Origin: a phage
DNA: 46,202 nucleotides
Assembly (NCBI GenBank): GCA_025043315.1
Contig: GCA_025043315.1_4324.1
Strand: one strand, 5' to 3'
Part shown: positions 9,708-14,233 of the stretch, in pieces
How positions within the stretch are numbered: position 1 is the first letter of the stretch
Layout: every line of letters starts with the position of its first letter
Notes under the pieces: model-generated
Told to the model about the DNA's origin: nothing
The model's database searches: none
The model's input: the letters and a program-made list of their open reading frames with translations, nothing else
Position numbers and translations under genes: made by a program

Positions 9708-11291
9708 ATGTTTGATTTCAACGAAGATAAGCTATCTGTTGAACAGGTTATGGCAATTGCTGCCGCAGACAACCTCCCACCCCTGCGCGTGGCTATCAAT
9801 GCTAATGGATATCGCCAGTCTCAATCATTCTGGAAGGCTCCGGTCGAGATTGATGCAGCTAATGATAAGTATCCTGTAATCTCACTAGGAAATGATATTG
9901 ATGTTGTTGGCAAGCTGTCAGCCAATATTGCTCGCTCAGTTCAGTTTCCGGAGTCTTCAGCTTATATGCACTTCCTGGGGTGTATTTCCGCTGCAATGCT
10001 GGGTCGATTTACTGTTGAGTATCATGGAACTCAGCAGCCGACTTCGCTGTACGTCGTAACGAGTCAGCCACCATCGACCGGTAAATCAGCAATTAACTCA
10101 CTCTCCATTGCTCCAATGATCGCCGAGACTGAGCGACTGAACGAGGTGCGCAAGCGTGAGCGCAAAAAGATTATGGCCAAGCTATCCGCATTATCCAAAG
10201 AGATGAAACAGGAGAAATCTCCGTCAGAGATGGCTTCACTTTTTGAAGAGAAAGAGGAGTTAGAGGAAAAACTCGAGAAACTTTGTGATATCGTATTCCC
10301 GGTATCAGATACCACACCTGAAGGTCTTGCGCGAATAAACAACCGCCAGGGCAACTTTGCGGTAATTTCTGACGAAGCGACGAGTGTTAACTCACTGCTT
10401 GGCATGACCTATGGAGATGGCTCTAAGAAAACGAACAGCGAACTTGTGCTTAAAGCATGGGATGCTGGTAACGTATCTATCGCGCGTGCGAACGCAGAGA
10501 ACAACATGAGCTTCGTTGCTATGGGTTGCATATCGGTAATTGCGCAGGATGAAACAATCAATGCCATCATGAACGCTGGGGCGCGTGGCATTGGCGTATC
10601 GGAACGTTTCCTTTTGGTCCGCGAGAAGTCATTCCTGGGCGAACGTGTATTCGTTGATGAGAATGGAGACTCAACTTACGAGCCAATTGATGATGGACTA
10701 AAGGCTGATTACTTCCGCTTAGTTCATGAGATAATGAGTGAGCAAGATGTTAAGCTGACAGTAAGCAACTCAGCGATGAAATATCTCAACCGTGCTCGTC
10801 AGGAGATGGAACCTCACCTTGCTGACGGCGGAAAGTATTCGCACACAATGTTGCGCGGCGCTCTTGGTAAGTTCGATAAGCAGGCTATCAGGATTGCAGC
10901 CGTTCTTCACACAGTTCGTAACTGGTTCAACCCAAATGGCGGTAGTCCGCAAAAGTCCAGAGAGATTGATCTCGACACCATGCAAGAGGCTGTAATTATG
11001 TTCCATGAACTGAGTAAGACTTATCTGTCATCTGCAAACGCTGCTGGGCATGCTGGCGACAATGCAGAGATGAATAAGCTGATTGATATTCTGATTAAGC
11101 AAGGTAAGAGCGGTAAAGGTGTTGTTGGTATTCGTTCCCTGTACGAAGCTGCTCGCAAGGTTAAGCCATTCGAGGCTCAGGCGGGAGTGATGACGAAGAT
11201 TAAAGATCACTTGCTGCCAATGCTTGATGAGAAAAACTACACGTGCCTGATTGGTGATAAAGTTTACATTAATCCACGACTATTGGGGTGA
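9708..11291 (+). CDS. P-loop NTPase replication protein (primase/helicase-associated), C-terminal domain duplicated at 6122..6499
   Basis: Walker A-like SQPPSTGKSA and Walker B-like FAVISDE; 527 aa. Confidence 0.6.
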   Translation: MFDFNEDKLSVEQVMAIAAADNLPPLRVAINANGYRQSQSFWKAPVEIDAANDKYPVISLGNDIDVVGKLSANIARSVQFPESSAYMHFLGCISAAMLGRFTVEYHGTQQPTSLYVVTSQPPSTGKSAINSLSIAPMIAETERLNEVRKRERKKIMAKLSALSKEMKQEKSPSEMASLFEEKEELEEKLEKLCDIVFPVSDTTPEGLARINNRQGNFAVISDEATSVNSLLGMTYGDGSKKTNSELVLKAWDAGNVSIARANAENNMSFVAMGCISVIAQDETINAIMNAGARGIGVSERFLLVREKSFLGERVFVDENGDSTYEPIDDGLKADYFRLVHEIMSEQDVKLTVSNSAMKYLNRARQEMEPHLADGGKYSHTMLRGALGKFDKQAIRIAAVLHTVRNWFNPNGGSPQKSREIDLDTMQEAVIMFHELSKTYLSSANAAGHAGDNAEMNKLIDILIKQGKSGKGVVGIRSLYEAARKVKPFEAQAGVMTKIKDHLLPMLDEKNYTCLIGDKVYINPRLLG

Positions 11292-11294
11292 TGA

Positions 11295-11630
11295 GTGTTT
11301 ATTTTGGATTTGTACCGCTTCTGCGAGTCGTATTCATACTTCACGCGCCAGCATTTGGCGCGATTCATCTACCAACATAAGGACTCTCAGAGATTCAGTA
11401 AGGCGGCAGGATTATCGCATAGGGAGTTTTGCAGTGCGGCTTCAAAGGAGTTCTGCGCGAAGATGCTTAGTGCTGGTTACATTGATGGTAAGTGCGGCGA
11501 GTTTGTTAGCAAGGGTAGTTTGAAAAGGCCATTTGGCTTCAACTTTGAGGCACTTAGTGGGTATGAGAGCAAGTACATAAAAGAGATGATGAACATAGGA
11601 AAAATGACGGACGACGAGTTATTTAGATAA
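11295..11630 (+). CDS. hypothetical protein
   Basis: 111 aa ORF ending at the convergent terminator. Confidence 0.45.
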   Translation: MFILDLYRFCESYSYFTRQHLARFIYQHKDSQRFSKAAGLSHREFCSAASKEFCAKMLSAGYIDGKCGEFVSKGSLKRPFGFNFEALSGYESKYIKEMMNIGKMTDDELFR

Positions 11631-11660
11631 AAATATAGCCTCCATTAGGAGGCTTTTTTA
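11629..11660 (+). terminator. rho-independent terminator at convergent junction (AGCCTCC-ATTA-GGAGGCT plus T6)
   Basis: 7-bp perfect stem 11637-11654, T-tract 11655-11660. Confidence 0.7.
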
Positions 11661-12034
11661 CGTCTTAAGATTAAGGTCAGGAGAATCAGAACAAGCAACC
11701 CCATAGCTCCTGTTCCAACCCACGGAAGCGCTGATGATTCGTTATTGGTAATTTCAATCTTTTCGGCAGTGATTGTTGAGGCCTTAATCGAATTGTCAGC
11801 AGTCTTTTTTCCGCTCGAGCTATCCAGAGAGCCTACGCTAGAATCCTTAACGGAAGCGTCGCTGGAGCTGCTGGAATCAACCTTATTCGTTAACCCAACG
11901 CCAATCTTGTTGTTCTCAGCCCCGGCCTGAGCTGTAACTTCCGGCTTGCTTCCAATCAATCCAGTCAGTGCATCAGTTGCCGAACATCCAGATAAAGCCA
12001 CGCACATAACTAACGCTGCAATCCGCTTAAGCAT
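11645..12034 (-). CDS. unimolecular spanin (lipoprotein signal plus C-terminal TM)
   Basis: N-terminal MLKRIAALVMCVALSGC with lipobox LSGC; C-terminal hydrophobic helix then RRKKAS; last gene of lysis cassette. Confidence 0.65.
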   Translation of the reverse strand: MLKRIAALVMCVALSGCSATDALTGLIGSKPEVTAQAGAENNKIGVGLTNKVDSSSSSDASVKDSSVGSLDSSSGKKTADNSIKASTITAEKIEITNNESSALPWVGTGAMGLLVLILLTLILRRKKAS

Positions 12035-12495
12035 AACTTAATCTCCTCGTTCCTGCGATTCACCAACCCCTTAACGACAACCTTTTTGCCATTAACGGTA
12101 GCTTTATTCCAGAGGCCCAAAGCCTTGCAACCTTGCTCAATCTTACCCTGGTTAATTAACTTAACGGCAGTGGATTTCCTCATCGCTGAGCCGCCAACGT
12201 TATAGCTAAAGCTAATTAACGCCGCTCTTGTCTGCTGTGAAATTGGGTAAGTCACAGCATCCTGAACATGCTTACCATGAATCTGAATGTGCTTCTCAAG
12301 CAGGTTCCGGCACTCCCTGTTGCTGTAAGTCTTACCCCAAACTACGTCAGGACCAGTAATACCAGAACAAACCGTTGGGATTCCGGCAATGTCCATGTAT
12401 GGCTTGTTCTCCACACCCTCAACAAGCTCAATAAGCGGCGCTGCGATGTATATTGCCGCAGCTGTCGCAGCACCAACTACCAGCTTCTGCTTCAT
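12010..12495 (-). CDS. SAR endolysin (T4-lysozyme-like fold)
   Basis: N-terminal Gly/Ala-rich signal-anchor LVVGAATAAAIYIAAPL; catalytic triad pattern E-x8-D-x5-T in VEGVENKPYMDIAGIPT; AAGGAG SD. Confidence 0.8.
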   Translation of the reverse strand: MKQKLVVGAATAAAIYIAAPLIELVEGVENKPYMDIAGIPTVCSGITGPDVVWGKTYSNRECRNLLEKHIQIHGKHVQDAVTYPISQQTRAALISFSYNVGGSAMRKSTAVKLINQGKIEQGCKALGLWNKATVNGKKVVVKGLVNRRNEEIKLCLSGLQR

Positions 12496-12711
12496 TTACT
12501 TACTCCTTATTTTGATTGCTGTTTTAAGGTCTCCAGATTCAAGTGCGCGCCGAATAGCCTGGCTATCCTTATACTTCCAGTAAGCACCCCAAGCTCCAAA
12601 AATGATTAGAGCGATAAGACTGATTATTGCTATAGTCATTTGACCAGTTGCCGCGCCGGTTACCGCAGCGCCTCCAGTTGATGCCGTAGCGGCGTTAATT
12701 ACTTCCCTCAC
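12496..12711 (-). CDS. putative holin/pinholin (71 aa from GTG; track gives 97 aa from ATG at 12789)
   Basis: TM segment MTIAIISLIALIIFGAWGAYW and charged C-terminus; directly abuts endolysin; GTG at 12709-12711 has AAGGTGG SD, while ATG at 12789 abuts a terminator T-tract with no SD. Confidence 0.45.
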   Translation of the reverse strand: MREVINAATASTGGAAVTGAATGQMTIAIISLIALIIFGAWGAYWKYKDSQAIRRALESGDLKTAIKIRSK

Positions 12712-12789
12712 GCGATCCACCTTTATGTATTTGTCAATGTTTAAGTTAGTAAAAGAATGATACATTAGCACCGCTCGGAAAAGAAGCAT

Positions 12790-12816
12790 AAAAAAGGGGA
12801 GCCAAAAGGCCCCCCG
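12790..12816 (-). terminator. terminator-like hairpin (GGGGGGCC/GGCTCCCC plus T-tract on minus strand)
   Basis: stem 12796-12815 with A-run 12790-12795 on plus strand. Confidence 0.5.
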
Positions 12817-12840
12817 CTTGTAAAGTTATGTTTTTTCTGC

Positions 12841-13017
12841 GCTAGTCAGCGATAATAAATTCAACTAACGAACCATCAATCGGCGCTAAAATGTGAGTCA
12901 TGTCATCGCCGTAAATCTTGTAATATCCATCACCCTGGTACTCTGCATTGTACGGCTGGTTAACTGTAAATGGCAGCGTCTTGGATTTGTTCTTGGTGCA
13001 ATAAATCATTTTAGTCA
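12841..13017 (-). CDS. hypothetical small protein (58 aa)
   Basis: ATG with GAGGAAACACAAA SD; promoter module upstream. Confidence 0.4.
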
Positions 13018-13058
13018 TTTTGTGTTTCCTCGTTTAGTTCATCTCGTTTCGATGTGGT

Positions 13059-13102
13059 GATTATGCCGCATTTCTACGGCATGGGTTAGGCAAAGAGTGC
13101 TA
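13059..13102 (-). promoter_or_regulatory. palindromic promoter module, degenerate (TAGGCAAAGAGTGCTA 13087-13102; ATAATC 13059-13064)
   Basis: 22-bp spacer; leader CACCACATCGAAACGAGATG. Confidence 0.45.
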
Positions 13103-14233
13103 TTAACTAAACATTTCGGGACGGCAAGTGAATCGGCCAATCTCACCAAACTTAGGGCTATAGATTATCACTGAAGCCTGTCGGTATGATCGATACCCTC
13201 CATTGGCGCTGTACGCATCCTTACAACCAAGTTGTCCATGAGACTCATCAATGCCTAAGTTACCCTCTGTAATCGTTTGATGGTGGTAATGGCCCGAGTG
13301 AGTGTAAACATACTCAGATTCACCAAAGGCCTTGCGATGATCGCGAGCCAGGGTGGACAGTCGAGTGTCAGGTTTTTTGAGTTCATGTCCATGACAGTAA
13401 CCAAGCAGGGTCTTTCCAAACTGTGTTACGTGAAGCGCCGCAGGAGATGCATCAACATTAACTCGAGGCTCATCCATATAGAACGCCGCCATTGCAGCGC
13501 GAAGCCAAATCATACCTGAGAGGTCGTGGTTGCCAGGGATAATCTGCACCTCAACCTCGGCGTGCTTATCAAGCATCCGACTAATTGCTCGGCGGGTAGC
13601 TCGCACCGCTACGTAAACAAGCTTGTGATAACGGCTATCTTGATCAAGAATATGACGACTCGTTGGAGTTACCGCTTCCATTCCGTCAGAGTGAAGGAAG
13701 TCTCCACCAATCAGCAATACAGCTTTCTTTGAGTTAGGGGCTTTTGCTACCGCGTAATCAAAGTAATCATTAAGGATTCTCTCAGCAATTTCAGTACTGT
13801 AGTTCTCACCACATTCAGCGTGGTGAGCCATGGCGCCAATGTGAAGGTCGAACACTGGGTAAAGGCTCAATGTGTCCTCAAATAATGATACTCTGAGCGC
13901 CTTAGGTTTCTCACGTGGCAACTCATCAGTTAGGGCTTGAATTACCTGAAGCATCATTTCTTCTTGCTTCTCTTTGTCAATGTCAGACTTAACCCACTGT
14001 TGCTTAATCTCACCATCCGCACCAATAAGGCTAGAAACACCCTTAACAGCGTAACCCTGCGGAATCAGATTGCTAACATCACGACCGTGACCTTCACCCA
14101 TCTTAGCCAATTTACTGCGACGCAATTCAACGTTGCGAATGTTCATTCCGTACTTCTCTGCGATTGCTTTGTTAGTCATGCCGTTAGCGAGCTCTTCGCG
14201 CAATTGTTCGTTGGTAATTTTTGCAGTTGCCAT
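13103..14233 (-). CDS. metallophosphoesterase (calcineurin-like) with N-terminal HTH-like segment
   Basis: motifs DLHIG, GGDFLHSD, GNHD, GHELKK; N-terminal GMTNKAIAEKYGMNIRNVELRRSKL. Confidence 0.65.
   Translation of the reverse strand: MATAKITNEQLREELANGMTNKAIAEKYGMNIRNVELRRSKLAKMGEGHGRDVSNLIPQGYAVKGVSSLIGADGEIKQQWVKSDIDKEKQEEMMLQVIQALTDELPREKPKALRVSLFEDTLSLYPVFDLHIGAMAHHAECGENYSTEIAERILNDYFDYAVAKAPNSKKAVLLIGGDFLHSDGMEAVTPTSRHILDQDSRYHKLVYVAVRATRRAISRMLDKHAEVEVQIIPGNHDLSGMIWLRAAMAAFYMDEPRVNVDASPAALHVTQFGKTLLGYCHGHELKKPDTRLSTLARDHRKAFGESEYVYTHSGHYHHQTITEGNLGIDESHGQLGCKDAYSANGGYRSYRQASVIIYSPKFGEIGRFTCRPEMFS

What the first reader, a model, noticed from the sequence alone, without database searches (positions are those of the whole stretch)
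11645..12829. Lysis cassette: holin, SAR endolysin, unimolecular spanin, with an ambiguous holin start
The endolysin has a Gly/Ala-rich N-terminal signal-anchor and the E-x8-D-x5-T triad; the next gene combines a lipoprotein signal with a C-terminal TM helix, the unimolecular-spanin layout. The holin ORF's first ATG (12789) directly abuts a terminator T-tract with no SD, while a GTG at 12711 has AAGGTGG and gives a 71-aa two-TM-like protein. The start, and a possible holin/antiholin pair, are unresolved.
Basis: partly seen in the sequence, partly recalled or inferred. Interest (0 to 1): 0.45.

Follow-up and report, generated by a model that had tools for sequence, protein, structure and literature searches.

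The report
T1-type phage lysis cassette
This is the ordinary three-gene cell-bursting module of a T1-like E. coli phage (small holin, membrane-tethered lysozyme, one-piece spanin), and comparison with relatives settles the doubtful holin start in favour of the GTG that gives a 71-residue protein.

Summary
On the minus strand the window carries holin (12711..12496), SAR endolysin (12495..12010) and unimolecular spanin (12034..11645), bracketed by two intrinsic terminators. It is the orthologue of phage T1 genes 13-12-11, in a Drexlerviridae/Braunvirinae genome.

The holin start can be resolved. The GTG at 12711 aligns with the start codon of 25 distinct relatives from at least 8 genera (24 ATG, 1 GTG). 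It has the only good Shine-Dalgarno (-7.2 kcal/mol, against -1.5 and -3.4 for the upstream ATGs). The holin family aligns as 71 columns with no gap.

The 78-nt upstream "extension" evolves as non-coding DNA. It shows no codon periodicity, has 1-, 2- and 5-nt indels, and carries in-frame stops in many relatives. No dual-start (antiholin) motif is conserved.

The endolysin is homologous to the phage 21 SAR endolysin R21, SAR region included, with an invariant E26/D35/T41. The spanin has T1 gp11's lipobox (LSGC), a C-terminal TMD and no periplasmic Cys.

What remains open is the holin topology: one strong TMD plus a weakly hydrophobic N-terminal segment that resembles TMD1 of the phage 21 pinholin. 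The effect of the unusual GTG start is also untested. Interest is low: this is a new member of a well-described kind.

The parts
12796..12815 (-). Intrinsic terminator hairpin upstream of the holin gene. Its T-tract at 12790-12795 runs straight into the spurious first ATG at 12787-12789.
   Evidence: Found by the terminator scan. It folds at -18.3 kcal/mol, z = -2.9. A terminator at the equivalent place is present in every genus inspected.
12717..12723 (-). Shine-Dalgarno sequence AAGGTGG of the holin gene, 5 nt upstream of the GTG start.
   Evidence: The anti-SD duplex is -7.2 kcal/mol. The values are -1.5 for ATG12789, -3.4 for ATG12765 and +0.7 for GTG12720.
12496..12711 (-). Holin gene (71 aa, GTG start, TAA stop at 12496-12498), the orthologue of T1 gp13. 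The strong TMD is aa 25-45 (12577-12639). The weakly hydrophobic Ala/Gly/Thr-rich N-terminal segment is aa 4-23 (12643-12702). The basic C-tail has net charge +5.
   Evidence: PHROG holin phrog_2877 is 71 positions long and matches aa 28-97 of the 97-aa ORF. Identity to T1 gp13 is 59% without gaps. Twelve sequences from at least 8 genera align over 71 columns with no gap and an invariant M1. Codon-position variability is 11/5/49 inside the gene and 11/15/8 upstream.
12010..12495 (-). SAR endolysin (161 aa, T4-lysozyme-type muramidase), the orthologue of T1 gp12. The SAR segment is aa 5-22 (12430-12483). Catalytic residues are E26 (12418-12420), D35 (12391-12393) and T41 (12373-12375). The ATG directly follows the holin stop codon.
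   Evidence: Pfam PF00959 scores 4.2e-36. The R21 structure 3HDE matches at E = 3.9e-27 over query aa 8-160, so the match includes the SAR region; RrrD 4ZPU matches at 7.5e-28. E26, D35 and T41 are invariant in 10 family members. The SD duplex is -8.8 kcal/mol.
11645..12034 (-). Unimolecular spanin (129 aa), the orthologue of T1 gp11. The lipoprotein signal is aa 1-16. The lipobox LSGC is at 11984-11995, with Cys17 at 11984-11986. The C-terminal TMD is aa 105-123 (11666-11722), followed by RRKK. The gene overlaps the endolysin gene by 25 nt.
   Evidence: PHROG phrog_1804 scores 8.3e-49. Identity to T1 gp11 is 38%, E = 2e-24. G16 and C17 are invariant. Apart from Cys11 in the signal peptide, the only Cys is C17. 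The SD duplex is -8.9 kcal/mol, against -3.3 for the internal Met10 start used in the DTL annotation.
11637..11654 (.). Bidirectional terminator closing the cassette. The spanin stop codon lies in the loop of the hairpin.
   Evidence: Both strands score in the terminator scan. The fold is -15.3 kcal/mol, z = -4.4.
12842..13018 (-). Context gene only, not shown to be part of the cassette: a 58-aa DUF7244 protein homologous to T1 gp14, lying upstream of the terminator.
   Evidence: Pfam PF23896 scores 3.4e-29. T1 has the same gene order. PMC13164509 proposes it as an SH3-like auxiliary lysis protein.

Best explanation
This is the T1-type lysis cassette of a Braunvirinae (Drexlerviridae) coliphage. 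It is expressed from the minus strand as three tightly packed genes.

(1) Holin. The 71-aa holin starts at GTG 12711. It accumulates in the inner membrane, anchored by TMD aa 25-45 with its basic C-tail in the cytoplasm. At a critical concentration it triggers and collapses the proton-motive force. By analogy with the phage 21 pinholin S21-68, the conserved, weakly hydrophobic N-terminal segment (aa 4-23) most likely acts as a releasable first TMD. This step is inferred, not shown.

(2) Endolysin. It is exported by the Sec system but stays tethered and inactive through its uncleaved N-terminal SAR segment. Depolarisation releases the segment, and the enzyme refolds in the R21 manner. There is no Cys in the SAR segment, so no disulfide caging. 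The released enzyme degrades the murein.

(3) Spanin. After lipidation at Cys17 and Lol sorting to the outer membrane (Ser at +2), the u-spanin bridges the outer and inner membranes through its C-terminal TMD. Once the murein is gone, it disrupts the outer membrane, presumably by membrane fusion.

The 97-aa and 89-aa readings of the holin ORF are artefacts of an open frame in the non-coding leader. The GTG start is a derived, uncommon state (24 of 25 distinct relatives have ATG). It probably lowers holin synthesis and so delays lysis somewhat; this is an inference.
For: Synteny and homology:
- The gene order matches T1 genes 16-14-13-12-11 and the convergent genes 10 and 9.
- The cassette DNA matches 94 phage records.
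- 822 phage records hold a holin homologue.

Start codon:
- The aligned position is a start codon in all relatives. It is ATG in 20 public genomes and in 4 further IMG/VR contigs, and GTG in L022.
- SD duplex energies favour 12711.
- The upstream frame is closed within 1-10 codons in L015, L019, EC3a, L021, RobRod40, G8, 2725-N35, T145P1, Shelby, KP1801, IME347, haarsle, PHB07, EcoS-95 and e4/1c.
- Codon-position variability is 11/5/49 in the CDS and 11/15/8 upstream, where there are also non-triplet indels.
- The family alignment is 71 columns with no gap, and the PHROG model is 71 positions long.

Endolysin:
- It is homologous to R21 (3HDE) through the SAR region.
- The catalytic triad is invariant.
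- The sequence A18-A19|P20 puts Pro at +1 of the only well-placed Ala-X-Ala site. By established knowledge of signal peptidase I, this blocks cleavage.
- The catalytic E26 lies 4 residues after the hydrophobic segment.

Spanin:
- Its lipobox LSGC is identical to that of gp11, which was shown to complement lambda RzRz1 (PMC6139136).
- It has a C-terminal TMD and no periplasmic Cys. Kongari et al. report the absence of periplasmic Cys for all 58 u-spanins they surveyed.

Holin N-terminal segment:
- Its hydropathy (KD 0.84-0.91; summed Hessa-scale apparent insertion free energy (dG) about 6.7-7.5 kcal/mol) is comparable to the verified S21-68 TMD1 (KD 0.5-0.64; summed dG about 6.2-6.4).
- It is strongly conserved.

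Literature: published papers call the T1 module pinholin + SAR endolysin + u-spanin (PMC6139136, PMC11447400, PMC13164509).
Against: - No experiment on this phage exists. I found no experimental test of the T1-type holin's topology or hole size in the held literature.
- The holin has no detectable sequence similarity to S21-68 (E = 5), so the pinholin analogy rests on composition and on pairing with a SAR endolysin.
- AlphaFold gave one long helix with pLDDT 46-53 over the N-terminal 20 residues, which is no evidence for a hairpin.
- The T1 GenBank record and the phage Shelby annotation describe a single TMD.
- No promoter was recognised between the upstream terminator and the holin start, so how the cassette is transcribed is not explained.
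Confidence: 0.88

Rival explanations
1. The longer ORF is real. In this reading a 97-aa (ATG 12789) or 89-aa (ATG 12765) product is the holin, or is an antiholin made alongside the 71-aa holin, as in the dual starts of lambda S107/S105 or S21-71/68.
For: The frame is open for 38 codons upstream in the window and in BEK1-1, DTL, JeanPiccard, FP and 12210I. GenBank records and gene callers use the longer forms: DTL 97 aa, BEK1-1 89 aa, and cluster P0001 at 89 aa with 174 member sequences. The TLS paper speculates about a dual start in its own holin.
Against: - SD duplexes for these starts are only -1.5 and -3.4 kcal/mol.
- ATG12789 abuts the terminator T-tract.
- The extension shows no codon periodicity and has non-triplet indels.
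- In-frame stops lie 4-10 codons upstream in close relatives, and 1-8 codons upstream in five other genera.
- ATG12789 is itself GTG or absent in JeanPiccard, L016, L019 and L022.
- The extension adds no TM segment.
- No Met-x-x-Met type motif is conserved at the true N-terminus.
- The leader RNA has no significant structure (z = -0.54).
Confidence: 0.03
2. The holin is a single-pass protein (N-out, C-in) whose N-terminal segment never enters the bilayer. It may form large, non-specific holes rather than pinholes. The lysis logic is otherwise unchanged, because any depolarisation releases a SAR endolysin.
For: Only aa 25-45 passes a TM threshold. The T1 and Shelby annotations state one TMD. 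AlphaFold shows one continuous helix. The link between the two segments is very short (T22-G23-Q24).
Against: The N-terminal segment is as hydrophobic as the experimentally established SAR-type TMD1 of S21-68. Its many conserved Gly/Ala/Thr positions suggest a membrane or helix-packing role. Kongari et al. and the TLS and KanT1 papers classify the protein as a pinholin or class II holin.
Confidence: 0.3
3. The endolysin is a conventionally secreted enzyme with a cleavable signal peptide, so lysis timing would not depend on the holin.
For: The N-terminus looks like a signal sequence, with K2 and K4 followed by an 18-residue hydrophobic stretch. One relative's annotation notes 'signal peptide found with Phobius'.
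Against: - The hydrophobic stretch aligns with the SAR domain of R21, which is retained in the active enzyme structure 3HDE.
- Pro20 follows the A-A site.
- Cleavage further downstream (after G27) would remove the catalytic E26.
- The segment is Ala/Gly/Thr-rich, as in known SAR domains.
Confidence: 0.04
4. The module has a fourth member. In this reading the upstream 58-aa DUF7244 (SH3-like) protein at 12842..13018 modulates endolysin activity, as proposed for KanT1 and T1.
For: It is adjacent to the cassette in T1 and in the window. [quoted passage not shown]
Against: - It has no signal or TM segment (by inspection of the sequence), so it cannot reach the murein before lysis.
- A strong terminator separates it from the holin.
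- It is absent from most of the family.
- There are no functional data.
Confidence: 0.12

Closest known systems
Phage T1 lysis cassette (gp13 holin, gp12 SAR endolysin, gp11 u-spanin; NC_005833 42878-43982)
   Same: Gene order, gene sizes (71, 161-162 and 129-133 aa) and flanking genes (gp16 exonuclease, gp14 DUF7244, convergent gp10/gp9) are the same. The holin is 59% identical with no gap. The spanin is 38% identical with the same LSGC lipobox. There is a terminator upstream and one downstream.
   Different: The window's holin starts with GTG rather than ATG. The endolysin and spanin genes overlap by 25 nt here, against 1 nt in T1. The endolysin is only about 45% identical to gp12 and lacks the 2-residue insertion near the C-terminus. 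No HNH gene (T1 gene 15) lies between the exonuclease and the DUF7244 gene.
Braunvirinae relatives (JeanPiccard/Bas02, BEK1-1, DTL, EC3a, Rtp-like L015)
   Same: The cassette DNA is 88-90% identical. The holin protein is identical to that of JeanPiccard, whose record already annotates holin, endolysin and u-spanin.
   Different: All of these use ATG at the holin start. Their annotated holin lengths disagree (71, 75, 89 and 97 aa) for the same gene.
Phage 21 pinholin S21-68 with SAR endolysin R21
   Same: The endolysin is a true homologue of R21 (E = 4e-27), including the SAR region and the E/D/T triad, and it lacks a SAR-domain Cys as R21 does. The holin has the same size and layout as S21-68: a weak Gly/Ala-rich N-terminal segment, a strong TMD and a basic C-tail.
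   Different: The holin shows no sequence similarity to S21-68. It has no M-K-S-M dual-start motif. Phage 21 uses a two-component Rz/Rz1 spanin, not a u-spanin.
Phage P1 Lyz (SAR endolysin with disulfide caging)
   Same: It has the same N-terminal SAR tether and the same T4-lysozyme-type catalytic triad (established knowledge; Pfam PF00959).
   Different: P1 Lyz regulation needs a Cys within the SAR domain. The window's SAR segment has none; its Cys residues are at positions 43, 62, 123 and 155.

Membership tests
T1 gp11 u-spanin family | N-terminal lipoprotein signal with a lipobox and an invariant Cys | tested here: met
   The signal is MLKRIAALVMCVA-LSGC, with Cys17. G16 and C17 are invariant in 10 members. 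LSGC is the wild-type gp11 lipobox (PMC6139136).
T1 gp11 u-spanin family | C-terminal transmembrane domain followed by basic residues | tested here: met
   W105-L123 has KD 2.33 and summed Hessa-scale dG -2.1 kcal/mol, and is followed by RRKK.
T1 gp11 u-spanin family | Sequence homology to gp11 | tested here: met
   BLASTP gives 38% identity, E = 2e-24. PHROG phrog_1804 scores 8.3e-49.
T1 gp11 u-spanin family | No periplasmic cysteine | tested here: met
   The only Cys residues are C11 (in the signal peptide) and the lipidated C17.
T1 gp11 u-spanin family | Beta-strand-rich periplasmic domain | not tested
   No secondary-structure prediction was run for the spanin.
T1 gp11 u-spanin family | Actual lipidation, outer-membrane localisation and complementation of a lambda RzRz1 defect | not testable with these tools
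   This needs globomycin or palmitate labelling and a complementation assay.
SAR endolysin (R21 type) | T4-lysozyme-type muramidase domain with the E-x8-D-x5-T triad | tested here: met
   PF00959 scores 4.2e-36. E26, D35 and T41 are invariant.
SAR endolysin (R21 type) | N-terminal, weakly hydrophobic, Gly/Ala/Ser/Thr-rich TM segment with basic residues before it and no usable signal-peptidase site | tested here: met
   K2 and K4 precede L5-I22, which is 50% G/A/S/T. Pro20 lies at +1 of the A-A site. The segment aligns with the R21 SAR region in 3HDE. No dedicated predictor such as SignalP was available.
SAR endolysin (R21 type) | No Cys in the SAR domain, which distinguishes this type from the P1 Lyz disulfide-caged type | tested here: met
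   Cys residues are at 43, 62, 123 and 155 only.
SAR endolysin (R21 type) | pmf-dependent membrane release and activation | not testable with these tools
   This needs fractionation with and without an energy poison.
T1 gp13-type holin (PHROG 2877 / PF27028) | Sequence homology over the full 71 residues | tested here: met
   phrog_2877 scores 2.4e-36 over profile positions 2-71 of 71. Identity to gp13 is 59% with no gap. All database homologues carry PF27028.
T1 gp13-type holin (PHROG 2877 / PF27028) | First gene of the lysis cassette, immediately upstream of the endolysin gene | tested here: met
   The holin TAA at 12496-12498 is directly followed by the endolysin ATG at 12495.
Pinholin (class II, S21-68-like) | Two TMDs, the first a releasable SAR-type domain | tested here: inconclusive
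   The hydropathy of aa 4-23 matches S21 TMD1, but it is below TM thresholds. AlphaFold is uninformative.
Pinholin (class II, S21-68-like) | Sequence homology to S21 | tested here: not met
   BLASTP gives E = 5. This would be a functional analogue at most, not a family member.
Pinholin (class II, S21-68-like) | Small (about 2 nm) holes that cannot release a cytoplasmic endolysin | not testable with these tools
   This needs complementation tests with lambda R against R21.
Dual-start holin/antiholin (lambda S, S21) | Two in-frame starts a few codons apart, each usable, with the longer product adding a positive charge | tested here: not met
   The only near-upstream in-frame start (GTG 12720) lies inside the SD and has no SD of its own (+0.7 kcal/mol). 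It would add M-D-R, with net charge 0. It is not conserved outside Braunvirinae.

The most novel reading that the evidence does not exclude
The most novel reading has two parts. First, the T1-type 71-aa holins would be a second, sequence-unrelated pinholin family. Their invariant Gly/Ala/Thr-rich N-terminal segment would be a releasable TMD1 that acts as a built-in antiholin, convergent with S21-68. Second, the window's rare ATG-to-GTG start change, shared with one other lineage (L022) and with the 174-member cluster P0001, would be an adaptive way of tuning lysis timing. A related open point is how the cassette is transcribed. A terminator lies 70-90 nt upstream in every genus inspected. A conserved TTGAC(A/T) lies 20-24 nt before the start codon in several genera, too close to be the -35 element of a promoter for the holin.
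Probability: 0.3. Interest if true: 0.35.

Novelty: new member of a known kind. Interest (0 to 1): 0.12.

Why it matters
The main value is for annotation. The same holin gene is deposited at 71, 75, 87, 89, 91 and 97 aa in public records. One record also starts the spanin at an internal Met, which removes the n-region of its signal peptide. The comparative test used here fixes the 71-aa start for the whole family. It combines start-codon alignment, SD duplex energy, codon-position variability, indels and in-frame stops.

Biologically the cassette is the textbook T1 arrangement. The only points of modest interest are the GTG start codon, which may delay lysis, and the still-untested topology of T1-type holins.

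Tried and rejected
- Pfam-A and NCBIfam have no model that recognises the holin, giving only sub-threshold DUF4126/TatA hits or nothing. The precomputed PF27028 label comes from the protein database, and I could not read its description.
- AlphaFold2 on the holin with an 11-row alignment gave mean pLDDT 68 and one long helix, with low confidence over aa 1-20. It does not help decide between one TMD and two.
- Folding the holin leader RNA (12672-12790) looked for a lambda-sdi-like switch and found nothing significant: z = -0.54.
- An Rfam scan of 11400-13200 gave only a chance snoRNA hit at E = 0.2.
- The sigma-70 promoter scan found no site between the terminator and the holin start on the coding strand. 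Manual inspection of TTGACA (12732-12737) shows it lies too close to the start codon to act as a -35 element.
- The J Virol paper on T1 gp11 localisation (PMID 30135120, PMC6206483) is not held.
- One paper search failed because a term was too short.
- The word-indexed protein search for holin homologues returned only 12 proteins. Diversity therefore came from tblastn of phage genomes.
- I considered an internal start at Met25 (ATG 12639) and rejected it. Its SD duplex is -2.7 kcal/mol, and that Met is Leu, Val or Thr in other genera and in one close relative (L019).
Full report
**What is there**

The region holds three tightly packed minus-strand ORFs.
- The first is an ORF at 12789..12496. 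It is 97 aa from its first ATG and 71 aa from the GTG at 12711.
- The second is at 12495..12010 (161 aa). Its ATG directly follows the first ORF's TAA.
- The third is at 12034..11645 (129 aa). It overlaps the second by 25 nt.

An intrinsic terminator lies upstream (stem 12815-12796, T-tract to 12790; -18.3 kcal/mol, z = -2.9). A bidirectional terminator lies downstream (11654-11637; z = -4.4), with the last gene's stop codon in its loop.

**Identity**

Profile searches name the three proteins holin (phrog_2877, 2.4e-36), endolysin (phrog_7, 6.4e-50; Pfam Phage_lysozyme, 4.2e-36) and Rz-like spanin (phrog_1804, 8.3e-49).

The DNA matches 94 phage records at 80-90% identity, all T1-like siphoviruses of Drexlerviridae/Braunvirinae. 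The best whole-genome match is only 87% identical over 72% of the first 25 kb, so the window is a distinct relative.

Gene order is that of phage T1: gp16 exonuclease, gp14, gp13 holin (71 aa), gp12 endolysin, gp11 spanin, then convergent gp10 and gp9. The holin is 59% identical to T1 gp13 with no gap. The spanin is 38% identical to gp11 (E = 2e-24). The endolysin is about 45% identical to gp12.

**The holin start**

Public records disagree for this one gene. The annotated lengths are 97 aa (DTL), 89 aa (BEK1-1, and database cluster P0001 with 174 members), 87 and 91 aa (other clusters), 75 aa (vB_Ec-G8) and 71 aa (EC3a, JeanPiccard, RobRod40, 2725-N35, T1 and all distant genera). Five lines of evidence decide for GTG 12711.
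1. The position aligned with 12711 is a start codon in all 25 distinct relatives examined. It is ATG in 24 and GTG in L022.
2. Anti-SD duplex energies are -7.2 kcal/mol for 12711, -1.5 for ATG12789, -3.4 for ATG12765 and +0.7 for GTG12720. The endolysin and spanin starts score -8.8 and -8.9.
3. The upstream frame is closed by a stop 4-10 codons upstream in several close relatives: Rtp-like L015, L019, EC3a, L021, RobRod40, G8, 2725-N35 and T145P1. It is closed 1-8 codons upstream in Shelby, KP1801, IME347, haarsle, PHB07, EcoS-95 and e4/1c.
4. Among 11 Braunvirinae sequences, variable sites in the 216-nt gene fall 11/5/49 on codon positions 1/2/3. This is the signature of protein-level selection. 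In the 78-nt "extension" they fall 11/15/8, and that stretch also has 1-, 2- and 5-nt indels.
5. Twelve holins from at least 8 genera align over exactly 71 columns with no gap and an invariant Met1. The PHROG model is 71 positions long and matches aa 28-97 of the long ORF.

The extension also adds no hydrophobic segment long enough for a TMD.

**Holin/antiholin pair**

No dual-start motif is present.
- The in-frame GTG three codons upstream (12720) is part of the SD (GGTGG). The ATG four codons upstream in EC3a-like phages is part of ATGGAGG.
- Neither has an SD of its own, and neither exists outside Braunvirinae.
- Met25 is not conserved and has no SD.
- The leader RNA shows no significant structure.
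- The TLS paper's dual-start speculation (M1RDFLLM) does not transfer, because the window has VREVINAA.

**The GTG start itself**

The window differs from its closest relatives by A-to-G at +1 (…GGATCACATG… becomes …GGATCGCGTG…). Only L022 and the representative of cluster P0001 (Val at the aligned position) share the GTG. GTG initiates less efficiently than ATG in E. coli, and holin dose sets the lysis time; both points are established knowledge. From these I infer a modest delay in lysis. This is untested.

**Holin topology**

- One segment is clearly transmembrane: aa 25-45 (MTIAIISLIALIIFGAWGAYW, KD 2.28). It is followed by a +5 C-tail, which should be cytoplasmic.
- The N-terminal aa 4-23 (VINAATASTGGAAVTGAATG) is 80% Gly/Ala/Ser/Thr, has KD 0.84-0.91 and is highly conserved.
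- I checked my recalled S21-68 sequence against phage 21 and found 100% identity over 68 aa. Its experimentally established SAR-type TMD1 is equally weak (KD 0.5-0.64).
- A two-TMD, pinholin-like behaviour is therefore plausible, and the literature proposes it.
- Against membership of the S21 family, there is no sequence similarity to S21, and AlphaFold does not resolve a hairpin. I found no experimental study of this holin family.

I treat "pinholin" as the likeliest mechanism. The holin is not a member of the S21 family.

**Endolysin**

- It is homologous to R21 (3HDE, E = 3.9e-27, query aa 8-160) and to RrrD (4ZPU). The match extends through the N-terminal hydrophobic region, which R21 retains in its active form.
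- E26, D35 and T41 are invariant in ten family members.
- The SAR segment (K2, K4, then L5-I22) has no Cys, so regulation should be of the R21 refolding type rather than P1 Lyz disulfide caging.
- Pro20 follows the only well-placed A-A site. Any cleavage further downstream would remove the catalytic Glu. A cleavable signal peptide is therefore very unlikely.

**Spanin**

- The signal peptide MLKRIAALVMCVA carries the lipobox LSGC, followed by Ser at +2, which directs outer-membrane sorting.
- There is a C-terminal TMD (aa 105-123) followed by RRKK, and no periplasmic Cys.
- All of this agrees with the gp11 family as described by Kongari et al. They showed that gp11 complements lambda RzRz1, and they give LSGC as the wild-type gp11 lipobox.
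- The Met1 start (SD -8.9 kcal/mol) is right. The internal Met10 start used in the DTL and G8 records (-3.3 kcal/mol) would delete the n-region of the signal peptide.

**Mechanism**

Steps supported here by homology, or shown for homologues:
- Sec export and membrane tethering of an inactive endolysin.
- Release of the endolysin on depolarisation.
- An outer-membrane lipoprotein with an inner-membrane anchor that disrupts the outer membrane after murein breakdown.

Steps that are inferred:
- The holin triggers by forming small holes after its N-terminal segment leaves the membrane.
- The GTG start lowers holin supply.
- Transcription reaches the cassette by terminator read-through or from an unrecognised promoter.

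**Verdict**

This is an ordinary, well-described T1-type cassette in a new Braunvirinae relative. Interest is low.

Noticed in passing
window 12732-12737 (minus strand); also L005, L011, L012, L013, L022 upstream of the holin: A TTGAC(A/T) hexamer lies 20-24 nt upstream of the holin start codon in Braunvirinae, Vilniusvirus and three Tempevirinae genera. It is absent in T1/Shfl1, Webervirus, IME347 and e4/1c. That is too close to the start codon to be the -35 element of a promoter for the holin. On the + strand it forms a weak promoter-like site, TTGTCA-16-AAGAAT, at 12731-12758. Its function is unexplained.
   Followed up: partly
window 12790-12815, and the equivalent place in L005-L014: Every genus inspected has an intrinsic terminator 70-90 nt upstream of the holin start, yet no sigma-70 promoter was detected between it and the gene. 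How the lysis genes are transcribed is therefore not evident from the sequence.
   Followed up: partly
window 12842-13018 (minus strand): A 58-aa DUF7244 protein (Pfam 3.4e-29), the homologue of T1 gp14. A 2026 paper calls it a stand-alone SH3 domain and proposes an auxiliary lysis role (PMC13164509). It has no signal or TM segment, and a terminator separates it from the holin. That argues against any action on murein before lysis.
   Followed up: partly
L002 (DTL) 2594-2956; L024 (vB_Ec-G8) 1095-1457 and 379-606; L001 (BEK1-1) 1836-2105: Public annotation is inconsistent. The spanin is started at the internal Met10 in DTL and G8, which loses the signal-peptide n-region. The holin is annotated at 97, 89 or 75 aa in DTL, BEK1-1 and G8 respectively.
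   Followed up: yes
window 11637-11654: The 5' arm of the bidirectional terminator encodes the spanin's C-terminal K-A-S, and the stop codon sits in the loop. The C-terminal K..A is conserved across spanins of the family (K127 invariant). Protein and terminator constraints may therefore overlap here.
   Followed up: no
window 13103-14233 (minus strand) and 9708-11291 (plus strand): The flanking genes are a DNA repair exonuclease/phosphoesterase (phrog_704, 1.5e-147) and the homologue of the T1 gp9-type DNA helicase (by synteny with annotated relatives). Unlike T1 and BEK1-1, the window has no HNH homing endonuclease between the exonuclease and the DUF7244 gene.
   Followed up: no
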